Notes: generated by a model not told the origin, from the sequence alone. 64,000 nt of DNA from a virus (IMGVR_UViG_2837719392_000001); one strand, 5' to 3'. Counted from the first letter of the stretch, positions 7,821 to 34,390 are shown. Numbers and translations: made by a program.

Positions 7821-8736
7821 TGATTTCTTTTGCTAAAGAATATATGGCTTGTCTATATGATTGCCAAGCTTTGCCATTTTGTTGAACAGCAATCTCACCT
7901 GTTCCTGATAACTCTTTTAGCTTCAAGTTTCTTGGTATGATTGTTTTAAACATGTGAAGATTATTGTTACTAGCATAATCTGAAACCTCATCATAGGTTC
8001 TCTTGTCAAAATTCGTTTTTGCGAATTCATTGAAAAGCACCCCTCTTATTTTGAACATAGGAAGCACCTGACCTAAATCCTGTAAATTATCAAGAACCAT
8101 ATCAATTCCTAATGTACTTAATTGGTCTGTAATTGTTGGGATAATAATAGAGTCACATGCTAATAATGTACTAGTTACCAAGTATCCTAAATTTGGTGGA
8201 CAGTCAATAAAGATATAATCATAATCATACATCTTCTTGATTCTATTCACAATCATAGCTAATACTGCAGTTCCATATTGTCTATTTTCAGGCTGTATAA
8301 TAAAGGCGTCAGGTGGAGCTGCTGAATATATAAGTTCTGCTAATGATAAATCCTTACCAACGCTTGGAATTAAATCAAAGTAGAATTCCGTTTCTTTATC
8401 TTCCCATTGAATAGTTCCTTCTTTTCTTTGACTTTTTAGATATGTTGGGCGTATGATAGTTTCTTCAAAATCTTCATACTCAGGCAATTCCCCGAACCAT
8501 TGATATTTTTGTTCTAAATACCCTAACGTGCTGACTCCATCATCAACCTCAACTCTTCCGTTTTCCTTAATTGACATATTTGCCAAAAAGCTTAATGAAC
8601 ATTGGACATCGTTATCAATAACCAACACCTTCTTATTAAAATCTCTACCTAACGTCTCCGCTAGATTTATGGTTAATGTGGTTTTCCCGACACCACCCTT
8701 TGAATTATACATAGTAATAACTTTTGTATCGCTCAT
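7774..8736 (-). CDS. parA: ParA/Soj-family partition ATPase
   Basis: 320 aa. Deviant Walker A KGGVGKTT at the N-terminus. Confidence 0.85.
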   Translation of the reverse strand: MSDTKVITMYNSKGGVGKTTLTINLAETLGRDFNKKVLVIDNDVQCSLSFLANMSIKENGRVEVDDGVSTLGYLEQKYQWFGELPEYEDFEETIIRPTYLKSQRKEGTIQWEDKETEFYFDLIPSVGKDLSLAELIYSAAPPDAFIIQPENRQYGTAVLAMIVNRIKKMYDYDYIFIDCPPNLGYLVTSTLLACDSIIIPTITDQLSTLGIDMVLDNLQDLGQVLPMFKIRGVLFNEFAKTNFDKRTYDEVSDYASNNNLHMFKTIIPRNLKLKELSGTGEIAVQQNGKAWQSYRQAIYSLAKEIIEQDEENEKGDESNG

Positions 8737-8936
8737 TTCTTATCTACCCTTTCTATTCATTAAATAATTATAGCGAAATTAAATTATATAATCAAACCTT
8801 TTTATATAATATAGACTGATTAAAAAAGTGACTTTTAGAATTTTTTTAGATATTTGCGATTTTACAAGGAAACACATAGAAATCTTCACTTAGCGTATTC
8901 CTTACTATAACCTATCCAAACTCCATATATTAAAAA

Positions 8937-8952
8937 TGGTCACTAGTGACCA
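8937..8952. repeat. parS-like palindrome TGGTCACTAGTGACCA (copy 2), upstream of parA
   Basis: Exact 16-bp palindrome, flanked by AAA/TTT making a 22-bp palindrome. Confidence 0.8.
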
Positions 8953-9047
8953 TTTTTGTTTATTATTTATTTATTGCTAATATTGATATTATCCTTGCTA
9001 TCTTCTTTAATATCTTTTTAATGTATTTGATTTGTACTTATTGGATT

Positions 9048-9063
9048 TGGTCACTAGTGACCA
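9048..9063. repeat. parS-like palindrome (copy 3)
   Basis: Exact 16-bp palindrome. Confidence 0.8.
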
Positions 9064-9160
9064 TTTTTGAAAACATCATTTTCGCGCCCTCTGTCATTTA
9101 TGACAGTTTCTATCTATACCCTATATAACTTCATATTTCATATCGCATACTTGTATAATA

Positions 9161-9176
9161 TTGTTTCTTGGTCACT
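9161..9176. repeat. parS-like palindrome (copy 4)
   Basis: Exact 16-bp palindrome. Confidence 0.8.
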
Positions 9177-9199
9177 AGTGACCAAATTGAATTTATGAA

Positions 9200-11175
9200 G
9201 AATAAAGCATTGACTTTTAAAGGACTTCTTCCTTATGTCATATAAATTATAACTTTATATTCTAGGACGATTTTTTATTGTTTTATAAGGTTTTTCGATA
9301 GGTTTTTTTTAGTATTTTTCTCTTCTCTATATTTCTTTGGTTTTTTATACGTTTTATTCCATTTTTCTTTAGTTTCTATAATCATCTATCAATAATACCC
9401 CCCCTATTCTCGTCCCATTCAAACCCTACTCATCTCCCATTAATTCAAATGTATTTAGATAGAATTTGAATAGCTTATTCATTTAGACTCATTATGTATT
9501 CAACCCCTATTTATCTTCTATCCAACCTCCTTCATCCTCACAATTCATATTCTCACCATATCTGTCGATATCTTTTTCTCTATCCTTTATCTTATCATAT
9601 CCATACCACATCATATATGACGAGGATTGAGATAGAGTTTTATTAGGATTGTATATAAACACTCGTCTCTACTTCTTCACAAAAGAAAAGAGATGAAATC
9701 CTATCATTCCCCTATCTATTCCCTACAAGCTCAAGCTATACTTTAGTTGATATCCAGTAACGTTGTAGAGTGATGATAGAATATGGATAGAAAGAAGTCG
9801 CTTCTGTGCTAATTATTACCCTATACAAAAAGAATCCACACCTATTCATATCCTATCCAATTCCCCATAAATAAAGTAATGCTTTATAAAAGGATATTGA
9901 TAGAATTGAAATAGTATATCTATAAAAAAAACTAATCATAGACTTTACAATTGTACATAATCAATCCTATTTATAATCTATCAAATATCCTATACGTATA
10001 AAGTATGATGAATTGAATATAGCAAGGTTTTAAATAGATGCTGTGATATTTCTTTACAAAAGTCGTGATTAAAAACCTTTCATAATCTTTTACAATTCCT
10101 TCAGAACGAATCAGGAGTTGAAGGAATAGAAAAGAATTATAAAAGAATCTATCTTCTTCCCTCATTCTAAAAAGACTCTTTTCATATCCAAATATCTACA
10201 CCTTGTACCAATCTAAACCCTATCCAAACTCATTCAAGAACTCATTACATTATGAAAAGTTAAATTTAGATTTTGGGAAGGATAATATCCAGCTAAATTA
10301 TTGCTAAAGTATAACTTGAGTCATAGAAGAATTCTATCAATAATCTTTCAAGCTTCTTTCAGAGCTTTTATATAAGATAGGGTTAGTAGAGATAATGGAT
10401 TTTGATAGATGATGGATAGTATTTAGCTATGACATATAAAAATTATTATTTTATCAAAAAAGAAAATCCTATCAACTCTCTATCAAAATTCCTTCAATCT
10501 CAATTTATATAAAGTATAGCTTTAGTTATATAAACAACAACCCCTCATAAATTCCATTCATCTCCCATTCTGAATATAAAAATCTTATCGCATAGAAATA
10601 GTTTTAATAGAAGATAAAAAGAATATGAGGAGATTAAATGTACTTGGTATAAAATTATCAAATACCAATGTAACACCATCTAAACTCTTTTCAAAACAAA
10701 AAGATAACGATATCAGTTGAATAAGATAATGATAGAAGTAGGAGGGATGTGCAAAGAATCTTAATACACCATCAAAACTCTATCAAAAGCCTAATGATAT
10801 TGAATTGTAAAAGTTTGGATGATGATAGACTTTAGATGGGGTTGAAAGGGTTAAATTGATGGAAGGGTTTGGAAAGAATGTGGAGGGGTTCATATGAGCC
10901 TAAGAATAGGATAATGAGGGATATAGATAGACTCGTATTGGAAAAACAGTAAAAAAATACGATAAATCGCATATTTATCAAGAAAATAGTATTTTTAAGG
11001 AAAAAGAGGGAAAACCAATTAAAAACTATTAAAAAAACCAATAAGAAATAGGATAAAACTTAAAGTTATTATTCTTATTGTATAAGGAAGAAGTCCTCTT
11101 AAAGTCACTTTCATCAAACACTTAATTTATCCATCACAAAGAAGAATATGATACAATAGATACGTAATCTAATAC
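9200..11175. other. about 2-kb non-coding region with degenerate iteron-like repeats (ATCCTATC / CTATCAA(A) / TATCCAAACTC). Pyrimidine-rich top strand 9300-10600 switches to purine-rich at 10700-11050. Candidate replication origin and/or long ncRNA.
   Basis: No ORF >70 aa on either strand. Repeated motifs visible by eye. Ends at a strong intrinsic terminator. Confidence 0.35.
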
Positions 11176-11208
11176 GAATGGAGACATGTCATCGGCATGT
11201 CTCTTTTT
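11176..11208 (+). terminator. rho-independent terminator closing the non-coding region
   Basis: GAGACATG-n8-CATGTCTC hairpin followed by a T7 run. Confidence 0.6.
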
Positions 11209-11232
11209 TTGTAAAATTAAAGGAGGAATACA

Positions 11233-11890
11233 ATGAAGAAAAAGAAATGTCCAGTCTGCGGTGCATTACTAGACGAGGACAATGAATTAAGATGCAGTCG
11301 CTTTCCCATCTGCACCTTTCAAGAATCTACAAACACAAATCTAGAAAGATATATCATGTATGACCTTGAAACATCAGGATTTAAGGATAGTGACCATATC
11401 ATAGAAATTGGAGCTATTTATGTAGAGGATGGAAAGGTTGTGGATGGGTTTGATAAATTATGCAACCCTGGAATTTTCATCAATCAGAGAATCACTCAAG
11501 TAACAAACATTACAAATGATATGTTAAAGGACAAGGAGTCTGAAGAAAGTGTACTGAAGGAGTTTATCGAATGGGTCCACTCAAAGAATACAGACGTCTG
11601 TGTCGGTCATAACATTGACGCGTTCGATAACAGAATGTTAAACGCAGCATGCAAAAAATACAGACAGCAAATGCCATTCCATAGAACACTAGACACCCTC
11701 AAAATGGCAAGGAATCTAAAATTAAAGGAAAGGGGGGGTAGTCCAAGATTATAAACAGGAAACATTGGCAAATGAATATTGTCATTTTACATATTCAGCC
11801 CATAGAGCAATCCAAGACGTAGAAGCATTATTTAGAATTTTTGAAGTTTTAAGAAAGGAATATCAACAACTTCCAATTATCAATATCTGA
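11233..11890 (+). pseudogene. DEDDh 3'-5' exonuclease (DnaQ-like) with N-terminal zinc ribbon (CPVCG...C..C). Frameshifted in a G7 run at 11732-11738.
   Basis: Exo I DLETSG and Exo II GHNIDAFD are in frame 1, ending at 11754. The Exo III motif YCHFTYSAHRAIQDV continues in the -1 frame to TGA at 11888-11890. Removing one G restores a 218-aa protein. Confidence 0.65.
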
Positions 11891-22132: not shown

Positions 22133-22161
22133 TTGACACAATATCATTTATATGATATAAT
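22133..22161 (+). promoter_or_regulatory. consensus sigma-A promoter for the tRNA array: TTGACA - 17 nt - TGaTATAAT
   Basis: Exact -35 and -10 hexamers with 17-nt spacer and extended -10 TG. Confidence 0.7.
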
Positions 22162-22271
22162 GTGTGTACAGTGATGAAAGGAGAGAACATATTAAGACGA
22201 TTTGTGATAGACTTTTCAATATTTCTTAATTTGTCGCTTCTTGGTCACAAGAAGTTTTTATTTTGAAAAAA

Positions 22272-22354
22272 CGTCCTCGTGATGGAACTGGTAGACATGC
22301 ATGGCTTAGACCCATGTGCTTATGCGTAAGGGTTCGAATCTCTTCGAGGACACC
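22272..22354 (+). tRNA. tRNA-Leu (anticodon TAG), class II
   Basis: Acceptor GTCCTCG/CGAGGAC, anticodon stem CATGG/CCATG with loop CTTAGAC, T-loop TTCGAAT, CCA encoded. Confidence 0.75.
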
Positions 22355-22398
22355 AATATCACTCCAATTCTTGTAAAGAGTGAATATATGAAATTATA

Positions 22399-22471
22399 TG
22401 AACATCTAGCATAATGGAAATGCGTAGGGTTCAGCGCCCTTCATGATACTGGTTCAAGTCCAGTGGTGTTC
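22399..22471 (+). tRNA. tRNA-like gene with atypical anticodon arm (loop TTCAGCG, identity unresolved), no encoded CCA
   Basis: Acceptor GAACATC/GGTGTTC (7 bp incl. G-U), D-arm GCAT/ATGC, T-arm ACTGG-TTCAAGT-CCAGT. Anticodon stem has a mismatch and a 6-nt variable region. Confidence 0.4.
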
Positions 22472-22521
22472 AAATACCAGATTAGAAATAAGGCTAAAAC
22501 AGGGATAATCATATCCCTACA

Positions 22522-22661
22522 TGGTCCTTTAGCTCAGTAGGTAGAGCAGATGACTGTTATACATCACTACATCAAATAAAGACAGTTAAGTACGTGATGT
22601 ATGTCAACACTTTGTGTTGACAAATCATAGCTTGCAGGTTCGAATCCTGTAGGGACCACCA
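22522..22661 (+). tRNA. tRNA-Asn (GTT) gene interrupted by about 67-nt insertion at the 3' side of the anticodon loop (about 22559-22625)
   Basis: 5' half GGTCCTT-TA-GCTC-AGTAGGTA-GAGC-A-GATGA-CTGTTA. 3' half TCATA-GCTT-GCAGG-TTCGAAT-CCTGT-AGGGACC-A-CCA. Near-identical to the intact paralog at 23946. Insert has two perfect hairpins. Confidence 0.6.
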
Positions 22662-22688
22662 AATATACATTTTTTGTGACAAACAATA

Positions 22689-22766
22689 TTGGTGAGTAGC
22701 GTAGTTGGTTAGCGCAATCGGCTGTTAACCGATGGGTCGTGGGTTCAAGTCCCACCTCGCCAGCCA
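22689..22766 (+). tRNA. tRNA-Asn (GTT)
   Basis: U1-A72, loop CTGTTAA, T-arm GTGGG-TTCAAGT-CCCAC, discriminator G, CCA. Confidence 0.8.
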
Positions 22767-22767
22767 T

Positions 22768-22843
22768 GGCCTGTTCGTCTAAAGGTTAGGACACAACCCT
22801 TTCACGGTTGCAATGTTGAGTTCAAGTCTCACACAGGTCGCCA
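22768..22843 (+). tRNA. tRNA-Glu (TTC)
   Basis: Acceptor GGCCTGT/ACAGGTC, loop CTTTCAC, CCA. Confidence 0.8.
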
Positions 22844-22848
22844 AAAAT

Positions 22849-22925
22849 GGACATTTAGCTCAGGTGGTTAGAGCCATCGCCTCATAAGCGATTGGTCGGA
22901 GGTTCAAGTCCTTCAATGTCCACCA
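22849..22925 (+). tRNA. tRNA with CAT anticodon, elongator Met or Ile2 (lysidine) type
   Basis: Acceptor GGACATT/AATGTCC (G1-C72, so not initiator), loop CTCATAA, CCA. Confidence 0.75.
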
Positions 22926-22934
22926 TATAAAGAT

Positions 22935-23009
22935 GGTGAGGTTAGCTTAATGGTAAAGCGCTGGACTGTGGCCCCAGTTATACGAGTTCGATTCTCGTAC
23001 TTCACACCA
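22935..23009 (+). tRNA. tRNA-His (GTG) with encoded G-1
   Basis: G-1 then GTGAGGT acceptor, loop CTGTGGC, T-loop TTCGATT, CCA. Confidence 0.75.
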
Positions 23010-23014
23010 AAAAT

Positions 23015-23091
23015 TGGAAAGTAGCTCAGTTTGGTAGGGCGCACACTTTGGGAGCGTGAGGGCATGGGTTCAAATCCCATCTTTCCAACCA
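23015..23091 (+). tRNA. tRNA-Pro (TGG)
   Basis: Acceptor TGGAAAG/CTTTCCA, classic Pro loop TTTGGGA, one A-C mismatch in anticodon stem, CCA. Confidence 0.7.
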
Positions 23092-23105
23092 TATATTCCA
23101 CATAT

Positions 23106-23181
23106 GCCACCATAGCACAACTGGCAGTGCAACTGACTTGTAATCAGGAGGTTGGAGGTTCGACTCCTTCTGGTGGCACCA
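23106..23181 (+). tRNA. tRNA-Thr (TGT)
   Basis: Acceptor GCCACCA/TGGTGGC, loop CTTGTAA, CCA. Close to B. subtilis tRNA-Thr. Confidence 0.8.
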
Positions 23182-23186
23182 TATTT

Positions 23187-23271
23187 GGGGAAGTATTCCG
23201 TAACAGGTAGCGGGCTTGACTGTAAATCAGGTGTTTAAACTCAGAGTGTTCGAGTCACTCCTTCCCCACCA
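23187..23271 (+). tRNA. tRNA-Tyr (GTA), class II
   Basis: Acceptor GGGGAAG/CTTCCCC, loop CTGTAAA, long variable arm, CCA. Confidence 0.8.
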
Positions 23272-23283
23272 ATAAAATAATCT

Positions 23284-23372
23284 GCCCAAATGGTGAAATC
23301 AGGTAGACACACTGGACTTAAAATCCAGAGGAAGAAAATTCCGTGCCAGTTCGAGTCTGGCTTTGGGTACCA
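23284..23372 (+). tRNA. tRNA-Leu (TAA), class II
   Basis: Acceptor GCCCAAA/TTTGGGT, loop CTTAAAA, long variable arm, CCA. Confidence 0.8.
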
Positions 23373-23378
23373 TATTTT

Positions 23379-23453
23379 GCGGGTGTGATTCAACGGCTAG
23401 AATGTCAGCCTTCCAAGCTGACTACGTGGGTTCGATTCCCATCACCCGCTCCA
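23379..23453 (+). tRNA. tRNA-Gly (TCC)
   Basis: Acceptor GCGGGTG/CACCCGC, loop CTTCCAA, discriminator T, CCA. Confidence 0.8.
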
Positions 23454-23458
23454 TAAAT

Positions 23459-23548
23459 GGAAAGTAAATCCAAGAGGTTTTGGAACACGCCTGCTAAGCG
23501 TTGTGTGGGTATGACACCCATGAGTTTCGATTACTCTGCTTTCCGCCA
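23459..23548 (+). tRNA. tRNA-Ser (GCT), class II
   Basis: Acceptor GGAAAGT/GCTTTCC, loop CTGCTAA, long variable arm, discriminator G, CCA. Confidence 0.75.
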
Positions 23549-23551
23549 TAT

Positions 23552-23682
23552 ACGTCCTTAGCTCAGAGGAAAGAGCACGCGCCTTCTACATTGCAATCTG
23601 TAGATAGCAAGACATTGAAAATCAATCAAGTTGATTTTCATATAAGCGTGATGTCGAAGGTTCGACTCCTTCAGGGCGTACC
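23552..23682 (+). tRNA. tRNA-Arg (TCT) gene interrupted by a 55-nt insertion (about 23590-23644) between anticodon-loop position 38 and the 3' anticodon stem
   Basis: 5' exon ACGTCCT-TA-GCTC-AGAGGAAA-GAGC-A-CGCGC-CTTCTAC. 3' exon GCGTG-ATGTC-GAAGG-TTCGACT-CCTTC-AGGGCGT-A-CCA. All other arms canonical. Insert has hairpins TCTACA/TGTAGA (pairs with anticodon) and GAAAATCAA/TTGATTTTC. Confidence 0.65.
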
Positions 23683-23691
23683 AATTCAATA

Positions 23692-23768
23692 TCGCGGGGT
23701 AGAGCAGTTTGGTAGCTCGTCGGGCTCATTCCCCGAAGGTCGCAAGTTCAAATCTTGCCCCTGCAACC
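23692..23768 (+). tRNA. initiator tRNA-fMet (CAT)
   Basis: C1 x A72 mismatch (CGCGGGG...CCCTGCA-A-CCA). Near-identical body to E. coli tRNA-fMet, but anticodon loop reads CTCATTC (T37 instead of A, unusual). Confidence 0.7.
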
Positions 23769-23771
23769 AAA

Positions 23772-23848
23772 TGGTCTGGTAGTTCAGTTGGTTAGAACGC
23801 CGCCCTGTCACGGCGGAGGTCGCGGGTTCGAGCCCCGTCCAGACCGCC
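23772..23848 (+). tRNA. tRNA-Asp (GTC)
   Basis: Acceptor GGTCTGG/CCAGACC, stem CCGCC/GGCGG, loop CTGTCAC, discriminator G, CCA. Confidence 0.8.
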
Positions 23849-23853
23849 ATAAA

Positions 23854-23941
23854 CGCTTGCGTGTGATAATTGGTAGTCGCGCGGTCTTGAAAACCGTTGA
23901 CGGGAAACCGTTTGAGAGTTCGAGTCTCTCCGCAAGCGCCA
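23854..23941 (+). tRNA. tRNA-Ser (TGA), class II
   Basis: Acceptor GCTTGCG/CGCAAGC, loop CTTGAAA, long variable arm, CCA. Confidence 0.8.
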
Positions 23942-23945
23942 ATAA

Positions 23946-24021
23946 GGTTCCTTAGCTCAGTAGGTAGAGCGGATGACTGTTAATCATTAGGCCGCAGGTT
24001 CAAGTCCTGCAGGGACCGCCA
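23946..24021 (+). tRNA. tRNA-Asn (GTT), intact paralog of the interrupted gene at 22522
   Basis: Acceptor GGTTCCT/AGGGACC, stem GATGA/TCATT, loop CTGTTAA, CCA. Confidence 0.8.
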
Positions 24022-24022
24022 C

Positions 24023-24097
24023 GGCCCGTTCGACAAGTGGTTAAGTCACTACCCTTTCACGGTAGTATCGTGGGTTCAAATCCCGCACGGGTCACCA
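24023..24097 (+). tRNA. tRNA-Glu (TTC), second copy
   Basis: Acceptor GGCCCGT/ACGGGTC, loop CTTTCAC, CCA. Confidence 0.8.
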
Positions 24098-24100
24098 TAT

Positions 24101-24176
24101 GGACATTTAGCTCAGGTGGTAGAGAGGATGATTATTAAAAATCATCAAGTCGGAGGTTCAAATCCTCCAATGTCCA
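24101..24176 (+). tRNA. tRNA-like gene. Paralog of the CAT tRNA at 22849 but with an enlarged anticodon loop (GATGA-TTATTAAAAA-TCATC) and no encoded CCA. Possible pseudogene or unconventional decoder.
   Basis: Acceptor GGACATT/AATGTCC, T-arm GGAGG-TTCAAAT-CCTCC. 10 nt between the 5-bp anticodon stem halves. D-stem has one mismatch. Confidence 0.4.
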
Positions 24177-24186
24177 CTTCTTTCGT

Positions 24187-24262
24187 GGTTTCGTAGCTCA
24201 ATAGGTAGAGCGCTTGGCTGAAGACCAAGGCAGTATTGGTTCAATTCCAGTCGAAACCACCA
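24187..24262 (+). tRNA. tRNA-Phe (GAA)
   Basis: Acceptor GGTTTCG/CGAAACC, stem CTTGG/CCAAG, loop CTGAAGA, CCA. Confidence 0.8.
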
Positions 24263-24267
24263 TAAAT

Positions 24268-24346
24268 GGGGAATGGGAATGCTAGGAGTGTTCACCTGCC
24301 TTGCAAGCAGGAATGCAGATGGGTTCAAATCCCATATTCTCCACCA
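24268..24346 (+). tRNA. tRNA-Ala (TGC)
   Basis: G3-U70 identity pair, stem CCTGC/GCAGG, loop CTTGCAA, slightly long variable region, CCA. Confidence 0.7.
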
Positions 24347-24353
24347 AAAATCT

Positions 24354-24429
24354 AGGAGCGTAGCACAAAGGTGAATGCACACGACCGATAATCGTGCGAC
24401 TGCAAGTTCGAGTCTTGCCGTTCCTACCA
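24354..24429 (+). tRNA. tRNA-Ile (GAT) with C at position 33
   Basis: Acceptor AGGAGCG/CGTTCCT, stem CACGA/TCGTG, loop CCGATAA, CCA. Confidence 0.65.
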
Positions 24430-24432
24430 TAT

Positions 24433-24504
24433 CATCTGTAGCTTATATGGTAAAGCCACAGCCGTTAGTGCTGGGGAAGTTTGGTTCGACTCCAGACCAG
24501 ATGC
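24433..24504 (+). tRNA. tRNA-like gene with aberrant anticodon loop (CGTTAGT, G at position 33, possible TTA/TAG-type anticodon). No CCA.
   Basis: Acceptor CATCTGT/CCAGATG (6 bp), D-arm GCTT/AAGC, T-arm TTTGG-TTCGACT-CCAGA. Anticodon stem has only 4 bp. Confidence 0.35.
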
Positions 24505-24918
24505 CGGAGTTAAGGATTCTCTGAGAAAAATCTATATTGGAAAGGACCACGGTGAGGAATTGTACGCGAAAGCCATGCAACACTATTCCAAATCCGAAAG
24601 CATCTAGCTAATGCCTTGTTGGTCTGAGTTTCAAGTGCGAGGTTGGGGCAGCTTGAACAAGAAATCGTATGGGAATAAAAAATCTGACGACAGCCGGATT
24701 GACAATATATTTCCGTCCTGTATAGGTAAAAGTGGTTTGATGTGAACCGTCAAAAGAAAAAACATCGCTGTCAAATACCGAACAAAGGAGAAGAGTAGGT
24801 AAAAGACAAACCAGAATCCTTGAGGCTATTAACCTCTATTTGAATATCATTGAATAAGTTAATGGTCGACAGTCCATTGGGTAACTCCATAGGAGCACTG
24901 TTAGGTCTTTTCTTTTAT
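24505..24918 (+). ncRNA. candidate structured non-coding RNA (about 410 nt) between tRNA genes. Identity unknown.
   Basis: No plausible ORF on either strand. GC content clearly above flanking DNA. Many short complementary segments. Lies inside the tRNA transcription unit. Confidence 0.3.
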
Positions 24919-24995
24919 AGCAGAATGGCGAAAATGGTAGACGCACAGGACTTTGACTCCTGCATTTGGAGGTTCGAACCCTTCTTCTGCTGCCA
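24919..24995 (+). tRNA. tRNA-Gln (TTG)
   Basis: Acceptor AGCAGAA/TTCTGCT, stem CAGGA/TCCTG, loop CTTTGAC, discriminator G, CCA. Confidence 0.8.
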
Positions 24996-25017
24996 AAATA
25001 CTCAAATGGGGTGATAG

Positions 25018-25604
25018 ATTTGTCAACTTATTATGATTATTATGTTTTTATTAAAAAGGATAATGAGTTTAAGTATGCTGGATACTATGATATTTCTGGC
25101 AAACCCCTTCCCATATATTATCATACCCGTAGCTTCTCATACGGTTTCTTAGATTATGGACAATATGTCGATGACCCAGATAAATATGGTATCCATTTAC
25201 CAAACGAAGGTGATGAGGAAGATGAAGCCAGATTCGGTTACGTTTTCCAATTACCAGATATAGAAGCCATTCCAGACAGAAGCCATAAAGAAGCCTATAT
25301 ATATAAAACACTGAAAAGAGATATGGAAATTAATCATTTCGAATATGACATAGAAGAATATTTGGAAAATGATGAAGAATCTGTCGATGGACATTCACTT
25401 GTTATTTGCAAGAGTGAATTTGATAGACTATCCATAGAAGAACAAAAGAAATACTTTTATTATAAGTGGATTGATTATGAAGATATGTCCTACCATAGAA
25501 ATATTCTATGCACCATCATCAATAACTGGATAAATATAAGACAATTCAAAGAATTTAAAGATATAGATAAAAAGGACATATATGTCATTGCCTTTGGAGG
25601 ATAG
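25018..25604 (+). CDS. hypothetical acidic protein (D/E/Y-rich)
   Basis: ORF 24966..25604, trimmed so it does not overlap tRNA-Gln. Probable TTG/GTG start after a GGGGTGA RBS. Start uncertain. Confidence 0.35.
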
Positions 25605-25617
25605 GGAGGTGATGTAA

Positions 25618-26340
25618 GTGCAATGTAAAATTTATAGACGCACTTGGTCGTTGAAAAGAAAGTATCAACAAGAAGCTTTATTTTTTGACATTGATTCCTT
25701 CTTTCTTCCATATTATAAAAGATGCCATTTAAAAGCGTACAATCGTCCCCAATTTTGGTGGGCAACAGAATGGAATCTTATCTGTGATGAATTCAATCCT
25801 GAAGAATATAAAGATATTGAGTGGTTTCGAAAGAATGTTGCGGGACGCTTTGTGTCTCCTAAAGCGCTTAAATATATTCCATTTGCCAAATCAGATGATG
25901 ATTTCCCTGTACATGAAATAGATGAAATAGAAGTGGTACAATATAAGGTTGTTGATGAATATGGATATCCTATAAGTATGGATGTCTATATTAGTGATTA
26001 TATTGAAGAAAATATCAAAAGATACAAGAACTCATATAGTTTAAACAATCATCATTGTTATCCATCTCTACGCTACTACTGGCGACATCCTCAAACGACA
26101 AATGAAAAAAGACAACAGTTATCTAAAGAAGAAAAAAGATATTATCAAGAAAATGGATGGCATATGAAAGAGCGTTCTAAAAGAAATGCAAGAAATCTGC
26201 CAGATTTATTCGATGATAAATTCATTCATGTTGACAAATGCTGGAAATCTCAGACTCGTCAGCCTCGACAATATTTGAGAAACAAAAGAGCCAAAAGAAA
26301 AAGAATTCATGGAGAGGAATACAGGAATTTTATGGGGTGA
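25618..26340 (+). CDS. hypothetical basic protein
   Basis: GTG start after GGAGGTGA RBS. 240 aa, K/R/Y/W-rich. Confidence 0.4.
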   Translation: MQCKIYRRTWSLKRKYQQEALFFDIDSFFLPYYKRCHLKAYNRPQFWWATEWNLICDEFNPEEYKDIEWFRKNVAGRFVSPKALKYIPFAKSDDDFPVHEIDEIEVVQYKVVDEYGYPISMDVYISDYIEENIKRYKNSYSLNNHHCYPSLRYYWRHPQTTNEKRQQLSKEEKRYYQENGWHMKERSKRNARNLPDLFDDKFIHVDKCWKSQTRQPRQYLRNKRAKRKRIHGEEYRNFMG

Positions 26341-26349
26341 TAAGTAAAC

Positions 26350-26643
26350 TTGTCGTACACTCAAAAACGTCATACAAAAAGCCATATTCGACATGAATTA
26401 TATACTCATATAAAAAGAAAAGAAAAAATATTAAAGAATGTTTACGATGCAGGCTATGGATACTGTAAAAACAATGAAAAACTTGGCTCTTATTATGGAT
26501 ACACGAAAGGACAACCGCATCGTCTTTCAAAAGAAAAGATTCATTGCTCTTGTCCAATGTGTAGAGAAAAGACGAGAGAAAGAGGCTGGAAACACAGTGA
26601 TTTAGTTAATATGATGAAAGGAATTGAAGATGAGAGAGAATAG
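26350..26643 (+). CDS. small basic Cys-containing protein, paralog of 28623..28880
   Basis: MSYTQKRHTK... with ...IHCSCPMCREKT. Shares the MSYxxKRH N-terminus and K-x-HKSCP motif with the ORF at 28623. Confidence 0.45.
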   Translation: MSYTQKRHTKSHIRHELYTHIKRKEKILKNVYDAGYGYCKNNEKLGSYYGYTKGQPHRLSKEKIHCSCPMCREKTRERGWKHSDLVNMMKGIEDERE

Positions 26644-26808
26644 CCAATGTGAATGATGGATAATTCTAGAAAAAATCCGTCAAGACTCTACTCCTATTGA
26701 GGATGGGAAAAACTCAAGCTGAAAGATGCACCAATAACCAAGTATAAGAGGAAGGCTATCAATAGAATGTCATGCTACAGACAGAGGATGTTCATTTGTA
26801 ATAAATAA

Positions 26809-26883
26809 CCGTCTGTAGTCTAATGGATAGGACACGGAGCTACGGACTCCGGGGTGGTGGTTCGATTCCATTCAGGCGGGCCA
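26809..26883 (+). tRNA. tRNA-Arg (ACG)
   Basis: Acceptor CCGTCTG/CAGGCGG, stem CGGAG/CTCCG, loop CTACGGA, discriminator G, CCA. Confidence 0.8.
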
Positions 26884-26896
26884 GTGAGGTAGAAAG

Positions 26897-27508
26897 ATGA
26901 TTAGAGAATTTGTTTATCAAAGGCTTAACTTTCTGATAAATAATGTACAGGTAGAACATTCATCTTTTCTTAATCAATATGCAAAAGATTTTATAAAAGG
27001 AATACAAGAGAAATGTGATGTTAACATGTCGCATGTGTTTATCGAGAATTTTCCTATAATTGTAGCCATACATGATATAGGAAAGAAACATATTCCAGAT
27101 TATATTTTAGAAAAAAAAACTCAGTTGACGGATGATGAATATGAATGTGTACAACGTCATTGCATTTTAGGATATGAAGACTTGCAAGAAGCTTTCAACA
27201 ACATACCTCTGAATGAAGAAGAAAAGGAGTTGATTAAATTATGCAAGGAATCATGTTTATATCATCACGAAAGACTTGATGGGAGCGGATATCCTTATGG
27301 TTATAAACAAATCCCTCTTATCGCTCAGATGGTAGGAATTCTTGATAGTTTTGATGCTATGACTGTAAACAGATGCTATAAGAAAGCCATGAGCAAAGAA
27401 GAAGCTATCAAAAATCTTATTCAATCAGACAAATATAATGAGGAATTTCTTTATGTATTATCGGAGGTGATAGAAGATGAAAATGAAACTAGAAATTCAG
27501 ACAAATGA
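26897..27508 (+). CDS. HD-GYP/HD-domain phosphohydrolase
   Basis: HDIGK...HHERLDGSGYPYGY motif. 203 aa. Confidence 0.65.
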   Translation: MIREFVYQRLNFLINNVQVEHSSFLNQYAKDFIKGIQEKCDVNMSHVFIENFPIIVAIHDIGKKHIPDYILEKKTQLTDDEYECVQRHCILGYEDLQEAFNNIPLNEEEKELIKLCKESCLYHHERLDGSGYPYGYKQIPLIAQMVGILDSFDAMTVNRCYKKAMSKEEAIKNLIQSDKYNEEFLYVLSEVIEDENETRNSDK

Positions 27509-27683
27509 ATTGAATGTAACTTATGAAGAATTAGTCAATCATGTTAAAGACTCTTTAAAAATGAAGAATGTCCCTTTAACAAAAGTGAAAGATGTAAAAG
27601 CATATTATGTTCCTAACACAAAAGTTTTGTATTACACAGCCATGTATAATGGTGAAGAAATCAAAGGAGAAAAATACTTGTAG
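27477..27683 (+). CDS. hypothetical small protein
   Basis: 68-aa ORF overlapping the HD gene's 3' end. Confidence 0.3.
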   Translation: MKMKLEIQTNELNVTYEELVNHVKDSLKMKNVPLTKVKDVKAYYVPNTKVLYYTAMYNGEEIKGEKYL

Positions 27684-28129
27684 TTTTATACTTACAGTTT
27701 TCTCTTTATGCCAGCATTGTGATGAAACCTCCTCGTGGTTGCTGGTGGGTCGCGCTAATATCATCACAAGAAACAGACATATGGCTGAAAATCCTTTCAA
27801 CGGGATAAGGCACACTTGCTTCATGGTGGGTGGAATTCCCATTATAGAAACTCGATTGAGATATAACATAAAGTGGTTCCAAGATGAACAATGCCGTTTG
27901 TAAATTGGCTGTGCGGACAAGGCTTTCCTATCCGGGTAACAAGGAAAGGGAAATCCTTCTGGTGATGCAAATGTCGAGGCACAGGCTCCATGGTAGAAAA
28001 ATCCAGAGAAGAAAAACATATGGTGATATATTCTGTAGTTGATGCCATGGTTGGAGGTCACAGAGTCCTTCTTTTATGCAATGAAAGCAAACGAGGAGCA
28101 GCTTGTTGAGGTATGTACGTCTGTTTTAT
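27684..28129 (+). ncRNA. candidate structured non-coding RNA (about 440 nt) upstream of tRNA-Gln(CTG). Identity unknown.
   Basis: Only Cys/His-rich nonsense ORFs on both strands. GC-rich relative to flanks. Adjacent to tRNA. Confidence 0.3.
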
Positions 28130-28204
28130 ATCGGGATAGCATAATGGTAATGCGCATGGCTCTGAACCATGTCAGTGGAGGTTCGAATCCTTCTCCCGAT
28201 GCCA
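28130..28204 (+). tRNA. tRNA-Gln (CTG)
   Basis: Acceptor ATCGGGA/TCCCGAT, stem CATGG/CCATG, loop CTCTGAA, discriminator G, CCA. Confidence 0.8.
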
Positions 28205-28282
28205 AAAAAATTTCAAAATTAGCAATTCATGATAAAATGATAGTGGTAATCCTAATATCAGGAGCCACTATAATAGAAGATG

Positions 28283-28446
28283 GTAGCAGGGAACTATCAT
28301 CTTCACTATTACATTAAAAAAAAGGAGAAAGATGATAGAAAACCACTATCATCTTAACTACTCTATTATAAAAGAGATGATAGAAGGTCACTATCATCTT
28401 CACTATACTATGACATTATTGATGATAGAAAACCAGTATCATCTTC
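28283..28446. repeat. tandem hairpin repeats: three 45-bp units (28331, 28376, 28421) each containing GATGATAGAAAACCACTATCATCTT (stem GATGATAG/CTATCATC), plus a degenerate copy at about 28283
   Basis: Direct inspection shows a 45-nt period. Repeat about 25 nt, inter-repeat 20 nt. Confidence 0.6.
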
Positions 28447-28450
28447 AAAT

Positions 28451-28525
28451 ATCTCCATAGTTTAGTTGGTAGAACGTCGGTCTCCAAAACCGAAAGCAGA
28501 TGTTCGAGTCGTCTTGGAGGTGCCA
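28451..28525 (+). tRNA. tRNA-Trp (CCA)
   Basis: Acceptor ATCTCCA/TGGAGGT, stem TCGGT/ACCGA, loop CTCCAAA, discriminator G, CCA. Confidence 0.8.
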
Positions 28526-28526
28526 T

Positions 28527-28600
28527 GGTTTCTTGGCAGATTGGTTATGCGCAGGACTGCAACTCCTGTCAAGCTGGTTCGATTCCAGCAGAAATCTCCA
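28527..28600 (+). tRNA. tRNA-Cys (GCA)
   Basis: Acceptor GGTTTCT/AGAAATC, stem CAGGA/TCCTG, loop CTGCAAC, U73 discriminator (Cys identity), CCA. Confidence 0.8.
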
Positions 28601-33496: not shown

Positions 33497-34390
33497 ATGG
33501 CTAATAAAAGTTTTATTATTAATAAATTAAAAGAAAGATTAGCATGGATGAAGGAAAATACTGACTATAATGTGGCATTTATCTGTCTTCAGGGAAGCCA
33601 AAATTATGCTATGGATACAAAAAAAAGTGATGTTGACGTTAAGTGCTTTATAGTTCCTACGCTAAAGGACATGGTAAGCAATAAACAACCAGTCAGCAAA
33701 ATTTATACTATGGATGATAACAGCATCATTGATGTTAAAGATATAAGACTGTTACCTTCATTGCTACATAAATGCAATCCATCTTATCTTGAACTTTTGT
33801 ATTCTGATTATTTTTTAACAAACAATTCTTATCATCGCGTACCAACTTTAAGATTGAAAAAACAATTAAAGAAAGTTCGTCATGATATTTGCAATAGAGA
33901 TGTTATGCGTTTTATGAAATGCTTAAAAGGCAATGTACATGATAGACGTAAACATATGGAAAAAGAAACAGAAACGACTGCTAAGGACATTGAAATCTAT
34001 GGATATGTTCCTAAGGACTTTCATCATTTATTGAGATATACTTACATGATTGAAGAAATCAATAGACTTGGTAAAATCAAGTTTGAGTCATTAATGTCTC
34101 TTGATTTTTTAACAAGACCGAAATTCAATGAATTAAAGCTCTACAAGACAAATCCTGTTTCAAAAGTGGAAGCCATGAGATTAGCAGATATGTATGTCAA
34201 TAAAGCGGATAGAATTGTAGAAGAATTTGAAGCAAACTATAGTGGCAATATTAATGATGAAATTGATGAAAAAGTGAAACATTATGTCAATGAGTATGTA
34301 GAGTTCTGTATTGAACGTGATGTGATTACAGAATTCGTTGACAAGGTTCAACAAAAGAAATTAAAAGAAGTAGAAAGAGAAAGGAGCTAA
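33497..34390 (+). CDS. pol-beta-superfamily nucleotidyltransferase (GS-x10-DVDV motif). CD-NTase- or AbiEii-like.
   Basis: CLQGSQNYAMDTKKSDVDVKCF is the GS...[DE]h[DE]h NTase signature. Third acidic motif IIDVKDI. GAAGGAGG RBS. Confidence 0.5.
   Translation: MANKSFIINKLKERLAWMKENTDYNVAFICLQGSQNYAMDTKKSDVDVKCFIVPTLKDMVSNKQPVSKIYTMDDNSIIDVKDIRLLPSLLHKCNPSYLELLYSDYFLTNNSYHRVPTLRLKKQLKKVRHDICNRDVMRFMKCLKGNVHDRRKHMEKETETTAKDIEIYGYVPKDFHHLLRYTYMIEEINRLGKIKFESLMSLDFLTRPKFNELKLYKTNPVSKVEAMRLADMYVNKADRIVEEFEANYSGNINDEIDEKVKHYVNEYVEFCIERDVITEFVDKVQQKKLKEVERERS

What the first reader, a model, noticed from the sequence alone, without database searches (positions are those of the whole stretch)
22399..24504. 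Three tRNA-like genes with non-canonical anticodon arms (22399, 24101, 24433)
The gene at 22399-22471 has a good cloverleaf frame but anticodon loop UUCAGCG with a mismatched stem. The gene at 24101-24176 is a paralog of the CAU tRNA but has 10 nt (UUAUUAAAAA) between its stem halves, which gives an 8-10-nt loop. The gene at 24433-24504 has loop CGUUAGU (G33) with potential UUA/UAG-type anticodon. All three lack encoded CCA, whereas every canonical tRNA in the array encodes it. They could be decaying duplicates or sequencing errors. Alternatively they could be unconventional decoders (frameshift or nonsense suppressors, which phages use to manipulate host translation).
Basis: seen in the sequence. 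Interest (0 to 1): 0.55.

Follow-up and report, generated by a model that had tools for sequence, protein, structure and literature searches.

The report
Conserved CCA-less tRNA-shaped genes, probably non-decoding
Three odd tRNA-like genes in a mobile element's 26-gene tRNA array are real and conserved, but relatives keep only the tRNA body and let the anticodon loop drift, so they look like tRNA-shaped RNAs rather than stop-codon or frameshift suppressors.

Summary
Genes at 22400-22472, 24101-24176 and 24432-24505 fold as cloverleaves, have the abnormal anticodon arms described, and are the only 3 of 26 ARAGORN-called genes without an encoded CCA (Fisher p=4e-4).

They are not sequencing errors. 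Genes 1 and 3 recur, identical or 97% identical, in independent metagenome assemblies.

They are not freely decaying. Each family shows 2-3 doubly compensated stem pairs, and divergence (86-87%) lies within the range of neighbouring canonical tRNAs (84-100%).

The anticodon loops are not conserved:
- Gene 3: CGUUAGU, CGGAGC or CAUAAC (7, 6 and 6 nt).
- Gene 2: UUUUAAA or UUUUAUA in sister lineages (anticodon UUA), and UUAUUAAAAA here (minimum-energy fold: 7-bp stem, 6-nt loop).
- Gene 1: UUCAGCG, against CUAAUUA in its paralogue.

TAA is the main stop codon in the window and in a relative that carries the UUA form. No recoded genes were found.

Gene 3 scores below the Rfam tRNA threshold. It always follows tRNA-Ile(GAU) and precedes a covarying hairpin and a very conserved ~115-nt RNA-like core.

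Best reading: CCA-less tRNA-shaped RNAs whose body, not their decoding parts, is under selection. Their role is unproven. Suppressor function is unsupported for gene 3 and for this window's gene 2.

The parts
22133..22161 (+). Consensus sigma-70-type promoter (TTGACA, 17 nt, TG-TATAAT) just upstream of the tRNA array. It is the likely start of the polycistronic array transcript that includes the three genes.
   Evidence: 12 of 12 hexamer matches with an extended -10. No G+C-rich terminator-like site lies between the three genes up to 25100.
22400..22472 (+). Gene 1: a CCA-less tRNA-like gene with a 7/5 cloverleaf, U8, A73 and a short variable region. The loop is UUCAGCG ('CAG', C37) and the stem has U27.U43.
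   Evidence: 47.1 bits; cloverleaf is the minimum-energy fold, z=-2.0. It is 100% identical in L011 and L012. Paralogue B in L011/L012 has loop CUAAUUA and two doubly compensated T-stem pairs. Paralogue B is absent from the window.
22849..22925 (+). Canonical CAU tRNA with encoded CCA. It is the parent-type paralogue of gene 2.
24101..24176 (+). Gene 2: a CCA-less tRNA-like gene whose 3' end reads ...AATGTCC-A-CTT. The body is that of the CAU paralogue. The anticodon arm is GATGA-TTATTAAAAA-TCATC (minimum-energy fold: 7-bp stem, 6-nt loop).
   Evidence: (54.5 bits). Orthologues between tRNA-Glu and tRNA-Phe in L001-L009 have loop UUUUAAA (anticodon UUA), and L016 has UUUUAUA. Two anticodon-stem pairs are doubly compensated and one mismatch is repaired. 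9 of 20 arm columns differ, against 2 of 56 elsewhere (p=5e-5).
24354..24429 (+). tRNA-Ile(GAU) with C33 and encoded CCA. It is the invariant 5' neighbour of gene 3 in every lineage that has gene 3.
24432..24505 (+). Gene 3: a tRNA-like element with 6 good acceptor pairs plus a mismatch or bulge, D and T arms, a 4-bp 'anticodon' stem and loop CGUUAGU. It scores below the Rfam tRNA threshold.
   Evidence: 24.2 bits, below 29. Orthologues occur in L011, L012, L103, L001-L009, L016 and L102. The loop varies: CGUUAGU, CGGAGC, CAUAAC. Three pairs are doubly compensated; 91.5% of cells are paired, against 52% or less when the 3' partners are slid.
24514..24533 (+). Hairpin directly 3' of gene 3: a 5-bp stem and a conserved 10-nt loop, CUCUGAGAAA.
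   Evidence: The loop is invariant. One stem pair changes U-A to A-U and another changes G.U to A-U across lineages.
24544..24657 (+). Very conserved RNA-like core (predicted three-way junction plus a hairpin). It is downstream of gene 3 but separable from it.
   Evidence: It is shared with few substitutions by all lineages, including L101, whose neighbouring protein is only 43% identical. In L101 the core follows a tRNA-Leu directly, with no gene 3. L001 has a ~420-nt insertion between the hairpin and the core. One pair covaries (U-A, C-G, A-U). No Rfam family matches.

Best explanation
The three genes belong to a small class of CCA-less, tRNA-shaped RNAs. They are probably co-transcribed with the array from the promoter at 22133.

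Selection maintains their L-shaped body: the acceptor, D, T and anticodon stems. It does not maintain the two features that decoding needs, namely a fixed 7-nt anticodon loop and a genomically encoded CCA end. I therefore read them as non-decoding tRNA-like RNAs, not as suppressor or frameshift tRNAs.

Proposed mechanism (inferred, not shown):
- RNase P should recognise the tRNA-shaped body and cut at its 5' end.
- RNase Z acts on CCA-less tRNA-like substrates in Bacillota. It should cut after the discriminator base, because these genes lack CCA.
- For gene 3, this cut would release the RNA that carries the conserved hairpin and core.
- For genes 1 and 2, the product would be a free tRNA-shaped RNA. 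Its anticodon-position loop is free to vary. It could serve as an inert structural relic or as a decoy for proteins that bind tRNA anticodon arms.

The window's gene 2 is a derivative of a UUA-anticodon tRNA that has lost a decoding-competent loop.
For: Shown:
1. All three fold as cloverleaves as their minimum-energy structure.
2. Stems are kept by compensation.
   - Gene 1 against paralogue B: two double changes in the T stem, 96.8% of cells paired.
   - Gene 2: two double changes plus one repaired mismatch in the anticodon stem.
   - Gene 3: three double changes, 91.5% paired, against 52% or less in slid controls.
3. Divergence of genes 2 and 3 between lineages (86-87%) is within the range of canonical tRNAs (84-100%).
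4. The loops are unconstrained in sequence and in length. Differences concentrate in the loop or arm (p=0.003 for gene 1, 5e-5 for gene 2's arm, 0.005 for gene 3). Canonical orthologues change only 4 of 56 and 5 of 140 loop positions and never the anticodon.
5. The CCA-less state is shared by both lineages of gene 2 (ACTT), by both paralogues of gene 1 and by all gene 3 copies. It therefore predates the compensatory changes and is a stable trait, not a decay step.
6. Gene 3 scores below the Rfam tRNA threshold, and gene 2's arm folds as 7 bp plus a 6-nt loop.
7. There is no sign of TAA recoding.
8. A consensus promoter precedes the array, and no strong terminator separates the genes.

Inferred from established knowledge: RNase Z in Bacillus acts on CCA-less precursors, and an encoded CCA is an anti-determinant.
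Against: - Only two to four diverged lineages are available. Covariation counts are small, and shuffle controls reach the observed values in 2-59 of 500 trials.
- The genes are dispensable in some relatives. Paralogue B is missing from the window, gene 2 is missing from L011/L012/L103, gene 1 is missing from the L001 lineage, and L008 has a 3'-acceptor deletion in gene 2. This fits relics as well as it fits functional RNAs.
- Genes 1 and 2 sit between ordinary tRNAs, so they are not needed as processing punctuation.
- Gene 1 keeps a 7-nt loop with U33. Deviant positions 33 and 37 also occur in CCA-bearing tRNAs of the array, so gene 1 could still decode.
- CCA-less genes can be matured by the host CCA-adding enzyme.
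- The core occurs without gene 3 in L101, so the two are not obligatorily linked.
- There are no expression data.
Confidence: 0.45

Rival explanations
1. At least some of them are working but unconventional decoders. The gene 2 family would be an ochre (UAA) suppressor, probably charged with Lys or Gln by host enzymes that read U35. Gene 1 would be a decoder with a pyrimidine at position 37, perhaps resistant to host anticodon nucleases or prone to frameshifting. The CCA end would be added by the host enzyme.
For: - The L001-lineage orthologue of gene 2 has a textbook loop, UUUUAAA (U33, anticodon UUA, A37), and scores 62.3 bits.
- Gene 1 scores 47.1 bits and has a 7-nt loop with U33.
- Deviant loop positions also occur in CCA-bearing tRNAs of the same array: Ile has C33 and the initiator-like tRNA has U37. 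This fits the published idea that phage tRNAs mutate loop positions to evade anticodon nucleases (PMC10264068).
Against: - TAA is the main terminator in the window (37 of 63) and in L001 (10 of 16).
- No TAA-interrupted genes were found.
- Phage recoding in the survey read here involves only TAG and TGA (bioRxiv 10.1101/2021.08.26.457843).
- The loop of gene 2 differs in three sub-lineages. The window form has 10 nt between the stem halves, and its minimum-energy fold has a 6-nt loop.
- Gene 3's loop is 6 nt in two lineages and never keeps an anticodon.
- Gene 1's two paralogues share no anticodon.
Confidence: 0.2
2. They are plain pseudogenes: duplicated tRNAs that stopped working and are on their way out. 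Their good stems would be explained by youth, or by gene conversion from neighbouring functional tRNAs.
For: - Presence/absence polymorphism among close relatives, and the L008 truncation.
- Loss of CCA and erosion of the loop are the expected first lesions.
- The window's gene 2 stem, GATGA/TCATC, matches the stem of tRNA-Asn(GUU) two genes upstream (GATGA/TCATT). A conversion patch could mimic compensation.
Against: - The CCA-less state is ancestral to lineages or paralogues that then accumulated only stem-preserving changes.
- Gene 3 is kept next to tRNA-Ile(GAU) in every lineage sampled that has that region, across neighbours whose proteins have fallen to 73% identity.
- Divergence is no higher than in canonical tRNAs. 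Flanking non-coding DNA between the two lineages is unalignable outside the conserved blocks.
Confidence: 0.25
3. They are decoys. These tRNA-shaped RNAs would soak up host anticodon-arm nucleases or other tRNA-targeting defence proteins. The variable loops would track the specificity of the host enzymes. Lack of an encoded CCA would limit their entry into translation.
For: - A conserved scaffold with hypervariable loops.
- Selection also acts on the anticodon stem, which RNase P and RNase Z do not need.
- The element carries RNA-repair-type genes near the array: an HD-domain protein at 26897-27508 and an RlaP-family nucleotidyltransferase at 33497-34390.
- tRNA arrays are discussed as anti-defence devices (PMC10264068, PMC12803027).
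Against: - There is no direct evidence.
- Loop variation is equally explained by absence of constraint.
- 6-nt and 10-nt loops do not mimic any real tRNA target.
- The host and its nucleases are unknown.
Confidence: 0.1

Closest known systems
Pseudo-tRNA and tRNA-like genes in phage or plasmid tRNA arrays. From my own knowledge: the phage T4 tRNA cluster with its two co-processed stable RNAs of unknown function. From a paper read here: tRNA array units of Bacillota, cyanobacteria and mycobacteria (PMC4758250).
   Same: They are embedded head-to-tail among bona fide tRNAs, presumably co-transcribed and processed with them. They have a tRNA-like fold but non-standard features, and their presence varies between relatives.
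   Different: Here the odd members form a consistent class. All are CCA-less in an array that otherwise always encodes CCA, and they show compensatory stem evolution with unconstrained loops. The survey in PMC4758250 reported no TTA or CTA suppressor-type tRNAs inside array units.
Phage suppressor tRNAs used for stop-codon recoding (TAG to Gln, TGA to Trp; bioRxiv 10.1101/2021.08.26.457843)
   Same: A mobile-element tRNA with an anticodon complementary to a stop codon (the L001-type orthologue of gene 2; ARAGORN also calls gene 3 'Stop(tta)').
   Different: The codon would be TAA, which is the dominant terminator here. No in-frame TAA was found in genes. The anticodon is not conserved in gene 3 and is lost in the window's gene 2.
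Phage tRNAs with anticodon-loop mutations proposed to evade host anticodon nucleases (van den Berg et al. 2023, PMC10264068)
   Same: Deviations at loop positions flanking the anticodon (32, 33, 37, 38) in tRNAs of a mobile element. CCA-bearing members of this array also show them (Ile C33, initiator-like U37).
   Different: Those tRNAs keep a 7-nt loop and their anticodon. Here loop length changes (6 and 10 nt) and the anticodon itself is not kept.
Allo-tRNAs and other irregular cloverleaf tRNAs (Mukai et al. 2017, PMC5389517)
   Same: Non-canonical tRNAs found in bacteria, phages and rumen Clostridia. Some have highly diverse anticodons and are suggested to be regulatory RNAs rather than decoders. 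The window does hold an 8/4-type tRNA-Ser(GCU) at 23459-23548.
   Different: Genes 1-3 do not have the 8/4 or 9/3 acceptor/T configuration or the long variable arm.
tRNA-like processing modules at the ends of longer RNAs (for example the mascRNA element of MALAT1), cut by RNase P and RNase Z. This comparison rests on my own knowledge.
   Same: Gene 3 is a sub-threshold tRNA-like fold without a standard CCA. It is placed directly 5' of a conserved hairpin and RNA core, where RNase Z cleavage would define the downstream RNA's 5' end.
   Different: This is a bacterial mobile element. The element is 5' of the partner RNA, not 3' of it. The core can occur without it (L101). No processing data exist.

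Membership tests
Canonical decoding tRNA (Rfam RF00005) | Covariance-model score at or above the gathering score (29 bits) | tested here: inconclusive
   Gene 1 scores 47.1 and gene 2 scores 54.5, so both pass. Gene 3 scores 24.2 and fails.
Canonical decoding tRNA (Rfam RF00005) | 7-nt anticodon loop with U33 and a purine at position 37 | tested here: not met
   Gene 1 has U33 but C37. Gene 2 has 10 nt between the stem halves (minimum-energy fold: 6-nt loop). Gene 3 has G33, and its orthologues have 6-nt loops. Two CCA-bearing tRNAs of the array also deviate at position 33 or 37.
Canonical decoding tRNA (Rfam RF00005) | Anticodon conserved among orthologues | tested here: not met
   Gene 3: UUA, against no definable anticodon in L001 and L102. 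Gene 2: UUA in L001 and L016, against an expanded loop in the window. Gene 1: CAG, against AAU in the paralogue. Canonical orthologues never change their anticodon.
Canonical decoding tRNA (Rfam RF00005) | Mature 3' CCA end and aminoacylation | not testable with these tools
   CCA is not encoded. Addition by a host enzyme cannot be judged from sequence.
Nonsense-suppressor tRNA / stop-codon recoding system | Anticodon complementary to a stop codon, kept across relatives | tested here: not met
   This holds only for gene 2's orthologues in the L001 lineage. It fails for the window's gene 2 and for gene 3.
Nonsense-suppressor tRNA / stop-codon recoding system | In-frame occurrences of that stop codon inside genes, and its depletion as a terminator | tested here: not met
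   TAA terminates 37 of 63 ORFs in the window and 10 of 16 genes in L001. Only two TAA-separated in-frame ORF pairs exist, and both look like ordinary adjacent genes. The one such pair in L001 has its own ribosome-binding site. Only 64 kb of the element was available.
Frameshift-suppressor tRNA | 8-nt anticodon loop on an otherwise normal anticodon stem | tested here: inconclusive
   A register with a 6-bp stem and an 8-nt loop is possible for gene 2. The predicted fold is 7 bp with a 6-nt loop (85% of the ensemble for the isolated arm). No orthologue shares it.
tRNA pseudogene (neutral decay) | Stem-disrupting substitutions and divergence at the rate of non-coding flanks | tested here: not met
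   91-97% of stem cells are paired, each family has 2-3 doubly compensated pairs, and divergence equals that of canonical tRNAs. Sample size is small.
Allo-tRNA (8/4 or 9/3) | 12-bp acceptor branch split 8/4 or 9/3, long D stem with tetraloop, long variable arm | tested here: not met
   Genes 1-3 have 7/5-type branches and short variable regions. The neighbouring gene at 23459-23548 does meet these features.
tRNA-like RNase P / RNase Z processing module | Cleavage by RNase P and RNase Z at the borders of the tRNA-like fold | not testable with these tools
   Only the prerequisites are shown: an acceptor/T minihelix, no standard CCA, and a conserved RNA immediately downstream of gene 3.

The most novel reading that the evidence does not exclude
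A previously undescribed class of CCA-less tRNA-scaffold RNAs carried by large mobile elements of ruminant-gut Bacillota. The tRNA body is conserved and the anticodon-position loop is hypervariable. They would act as decoys for host tRNA-targeting defence nucleases. In the case of gene 3, the element would act as the RNase P/Z-processed 5' module of a new structured RNA, made of the hairpin with loop CUCUGAGAAA and the very conserved ~115-nt core.
Probability: 0.2. Interest if true: 0.7.

Novelty: new variant of a known kind. Interest (0 to 1): 0.42.

Why it matters
Gene finders label such genes 'tRNA-Stop', 'tRNA-Leu' or 'tRNA-Phe'. Those labels feed claims of suppressor tRNAs and of recoding in mobile elements.

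Comparative data here show that the label is wrong or unsupported for at least two of the three genes. They also show that the genes are not junk: a tRNA-shaped body is being kept without a decoding loop.

If these RNAs are decoys or processing modules, they would add a non-translational function to the tRNA arrays of phages and plasmids, which are currently discussed as anti-defence devices.

The work also exposed a very conserved, unclassified RNA-like element next to gene 3 that deserves its own study.

Tried and rejected
- **Known phages, plasmids and IMG/VR.** No relatives were found in the INPHARED phage records, the PLSDB plasmid records or the IMG/VR viral contigs. The single IMG/VR hit (L099) was a chance match inside a coding region.
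- **Metagenome scan.** It gave one more L012-like locus (L103) and no new diversity.
- **Genome scan with the 653-aa neighbouring protein.** It gave 78 loci, nearly all ruminant-gut MAGs, but these have no related tRNA arrays.
- **Exact-protein look-ups.** Look-ups for two window proteins and for P0001 did not yield an independent copy of the window-type gene 2.
- **TAA recoding.** Rejected from ORF statistics and inspection of in-frame ORF pairs.
- **Rfam families for the region downstream of gene 3.** These included large phage-associated RNAs, RNase P RNA, tmRNA and introns. No match was found. A resemblance I noted by eye to RNase P conserved regions did not survive a pairing check.
- **Whole 413-nt spacer as one structured RNA.** Not supported (z=-0.86). 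Only the hairpin and the core are conserved.
- **Gene conversion of gene 2's arm from tRNA-Asn.** The stem is identical, but the overall match is not exceptional.
- **Function of the array-embedded 240-aa protein.** The AlphaFold model had pLDDT 66 and there was no PDB fold match.
- **Archaeal-type bulge-helix-bulge motif for the two insert-bearing tRNAs.** Not evident in the folds.
- **8/4 or 9/3 registers for genes 1 and 3.** They do not fit.

Full report
**Observation**

ARAGORN finds 26 tRNA-type genes on the + strand between 22273 and 28600.

- Gene 1 (22399/22400-22472/3) has loop UUCAGCG, so position 37 is C, and a U27.U43 mismatch.
- Gene 2 (24101-24176) has a perfect stem GATGA/TCATC around 10 nt, UUAUUAAAAA. 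ARAGORN can call it 'Phe(aaa)' only by accepting a mismatched register. RNAfold gives a 7-bp stem with a 6-nt loop.
- Gene 3 (24432/3-24505) has loop CGUUAGU, so position 33 is G.

Rfam's tRNA model scores gene 1 at 47.1 bits and gene 2 at 54.5 bits. Gene 3 reaches only 24.2 bits, below the 29-bit threshold.

Every other ARAGORN gene ends in CCA and these three do not (Fisher p=3.8e-4). Gene 2 shares its first 20 nt and 27 of its last 29 nt with the CAU tRNA at 22849.

Two qualifications apply.
- In most relatives, the acceptor strand of gene 3 is followed directly by CCA with no discriminator base.
- Two CCA-bearing tRNAs also have deviant loops: Ile(GAU) has C33 and the initiator-like CAU tRNA at 23693 has U37 and C38.

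**Context**

The window has about 32% G+C. Identified genes include:
- RepA_N, ParA/ParB, RecD2, RecJ, topoisomerase and an FtsH-like protease;
- a Pol III alpha gene interrupted by HNH and GIY-YIG endonuclease ORFs;
- an HD-domain protein inside the array and an RlaP-family nucleotidyltransferase nearby.

The 8.7-11.3 kb region holds three copies of the palindrome TGGTCACTAGTGACCA and iteron-like repeats, at the GC-skew minimum. I identified no capsid or terminase gene among the ORFs I searched. The 'phage' label is therefore unverified, and a large plasmid or a phage-plasmid is equally possible.

A perfect consensus promoter lies at 22133-22161, just upstream of the array. No strong terminator separates the genes up to 25100.

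**Relatives**

Known phage and plasmid records and IMG/VR hold nothing similar. The array-embedded 240-aa protein (25618-26340) has 13 homologues in metagenomes. Their contigs gave two main lineages.
- Window type: L011, L012, L103 and L102 (neighbouring protein 73-80% identical).
- L001 type: L001-L010 and L016-L020 (87% identical, with a different array order).
- L101 is a distant locus (43% identical).

Homologues of the neighbouring 653-aa protein occur in many ruminant-gut Bacillota MAGs, but without such arrays.

**Gene 3**

A homologue sits directly after tRNA-Ile(GAU) in both lineages and in L102.

The 'anticodon' loop is not conserved:
- CGUUAGU in the window type;
- CGGAGC (6 nt) in the L001 type;
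- CAUAAC (6 nt) in L102.

The stems are kept. Three pairs changed on both sides (acceptor G-C to A-U, anticodon stem C-G to U-A, hairpin U-A to A-U), and several others changed through G.U intermediates. 91.5% of cells are paired, against 52% or less when the 3' partners are slid. A stop-codon decoder would keep its anticodon, and this element does not.

Gene 3 is followed by a hairpin (24514-24533) with an invariant loop, CUCUGAGAAA, and a covarying stem. Further downstream lies a ~115-nt core (about 24544-24657). Only a few of its positions vary across all lineages, including L101, where the neighbouring protein has fallen to 43% identity.

The L001 lineage has a ~420-nt insertion between the hairpin and the core. 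In L101 the core follows a tRNA-Leu directly, without gene 3. The two are therefore neighbours but separable modules. No Rfam family matches the core.

**Gene 2**

In the L001 lineage, the gene between tRNA-Glu and tRNA-Phe is the orthologue. It has the same acceptor, D and T arms and the same CCA-less 3' end, A-CTT. Its loop is a canonical 7-nt UUUUAAA with anticodon UUA, and it scores 62.3 bits. L016 has UUUUAUA, and L008 lacks part of the 3' acceptor strand.

Between the window and L001, 9 of 20 columns of the anticodon arm differ, against 2 of 56 elsewhere (p=5e-5). All five stem substitutions preserve or improve pairing: two pairs are doubly compensated and one A.C mismatch is repaired. 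This cannot be a read error.

It could reflect selection on the stem. It could also be a conversion patch, because the window stem equals that of tRNA-Asn(GUU) two genes upstream. I could not obtain an independent assembly of the window-type loop.

**Gene 1**

Gene 1 is 100% identical in L011 and L012. Those loci also carry a paralogue between tRNA-Glu and the CAU tRNA, which ARAGORN calls 'Ile(aat)'. It has loop CUAAUUA (U37) and is again CCA-less. It is absent from the window.

The two paralogues differ at 5 of 7 loop positions and at 10 of 66 other positions (p=0.003). They show two doubly compensated T-stem pairs, and 96.8% of cells are paired.

**Controls**

Canonical orthologues change only 4 of 56 loop positions (window against L001) and 5 of 140 (window against L012), and never the anticodon. 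Overall divergence of genes 2 and 3 between lineages (86-87%) lies inside the range of canonical tRNAs (84-100%).

**Recoding test**

- TAA ends 37 of 63 ORFs of at least 100 aa in the window and 10 of 16 called genes in L001, which carries the UUA form.
- Only two TAA-separated in-frame ORF pairs exist in the window, and both look like ordinary neighbouring genes.
- The one such pair in L001 has a strong ribosome-binding site before the second start codon.
- The published survey of phage recoding that I read reports only TAG and TGA reassignment, in phages that prefer TAA as their stop codon.

Nothing here supports TAA suppression as a system. However, only 64 kb of the element could be examined.

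**Interpretation**

The pattern is consistent across three or four families:
- a CCA-less state that predates lineage or paralogue divergence;
- stems maintained afterwards by compensation;
- loops free to change in sequence and in length.

This argues that the tRNA-shaped body is under selection and the decoding parts are not. I therefore favour non-decoding tRNA-like RNAs (confidence 0.45).

Their processing by RNase P and RNase Z is inferred from what is known of CCA-less precursors in Bacillus. For gene 3, that processing would define the 5' end of the downstream conserved RNA. For genes 1 and 2, no specific role is shown. They may be structural relics or decoys.

The rivals are:
- unconventional decoders (0.2), supported mainly by the L001-type UUA loop and by gene 1's intact 7-nt loop;
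- plain young pseudogenes (0.25), supported by presence/absence polymorphism and a possible conversion patch;
- decoys for tRNA-targeting defences (0.1), a more specific form of the favoured reading.

**Comparison with known systems**

Pseudo-tRNAs and tRNA-like RNAs in phage or plasmid arrays are known, as are predicted suppressor tRNAs, nuclease-evading loop mutations (PMC10264068) and irregular cloverleaf tRNAs (PMC5389517). Two things appear new here. The first is the consistency of the class: CCA-less, a compensated scaffold and an unconstrained loop. The second is the fixed placement of gene 3 beside a very conserved, unclassified RNA element. I rate this a new variant of a known kind, of moderate interest.

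Noticed in passing
window 23459-23548 (+): An unannotated tRNA-Ser(GCU)-like gene. It has an 8-bp acceptor stem, a 4-bp T stem, a 6-bp D stem with a tetraloop, a long variable arm and an encoded CCA (the minimum-energy fold gives exactly this; z=-2.7). Both ARAGORN and the Rfam tRNA model miss it. It is identical in L011 and L103. It fits the '(8/4) tRNA-Ser' class reported from phages and rumen Clostridia (PMC5389517).
   Followed up: partly
window 22523-22661 (+); also L011 3143-3290 and L012 ~122-265: A tRNA-Asn(GUU)-like gene with encoded CCA, interrupted after A37 by a ~70-nt insert that forms two 8-bp hairpins. The insert is conserved in L011 and L012. It is far too short for a group I intron, and no bulge-helix-bulge motif is evident.
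   Followed up: partly
window 23552-23683 (+): tRNA-Arg(UCU) carries a 56-nt insert at the 37/38 position of the anticodon loop. The otherwise identical genes of L011, L012 and L103 lack it. This is a recent insertion of a small hairpin-rich element into an anticodon loop.
   Followed up: partly
window 24514-24533 and ~24544-24657 (+); L001 8459-8581; L101 358-472; L102 232-350: A hairpin with invariant loop CUCUGAGAAA, and a ~115-nt RNA-like core (predicted three-way junction plus a hairpin with one covarying pair). The core varies at only a few positions across lineages whose neighbouring protein is only 43% identical. No Rfam family matches. This is a candidate new structured RNA or cis-regulatory element inside tRNA arrays.
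   Followed up: partly
window 24354-24429 and 23693-23769 (+): CCA-bearing, high-scoring tRNAs with deviant loop positions. tRNA-Ile(GAU) has C33 (CCGATAA) in all lineages. The initiator-like CAU tRNA has U37 and C38 (CTCATTC) in the window lineage but AA in L001. tRNA-Phe has C33 in L001 and L012.
   Followed up: partly
window 58065-63994 (-): The Pol III alpha (dnaE-type) gene is split into three coding pieces: 62636-63994, 60590-61393 and 58065-59522. Two inserts separate them, and each encodes a homing-type endonuclease: HNH/NUMOD at 61547-62275 and GIY-YIG at 59622-60425. Rfam detects no group I intron there at its gathering thresholds.
   Followed up: partly
window 8700-11300: A ~2.5-kb stretch with no ORF of 90 aa or more, next to ParA/ParB. 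It holds three copies of the palindrome TGGTCACTAGTGACCA (parS-like) and many CTATC-type iteron-like repeats. It coincides with the cumulative GC-skew minimum and the switch of coding strand. This is probably a plasmid-type origin and partition region.
   Followed up: partly
window 22236-22255 (+): A terminator-like hairpin with a T-run lies between the consensus promoter (22133-22161) and the first tRNA (22273). It may be an attenuator or a leader structure for the array.
   Followed up: no
window array 22273-28600 compared with L001 5689-11444: The window's array has no tRNA-Lys or tRNA-Val gene, although the genome is AT-rich. The L001 lineage has both Lys(UUU) and Val(UAC). The two lineages share blocks (Met-Asp-Ser-Asn-Glu-X-Phe-Ala-Ile) but are otherwise rearranged.
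   Followed up: no
L001 6591-6677: A Ser(UGA)-like duplicate that scores 33 bits on the Rfam tRNA-Sec model, below its threshold of 47. This is another irregular tRNA-like gene in the sister lineage's array.
   Followed up: no
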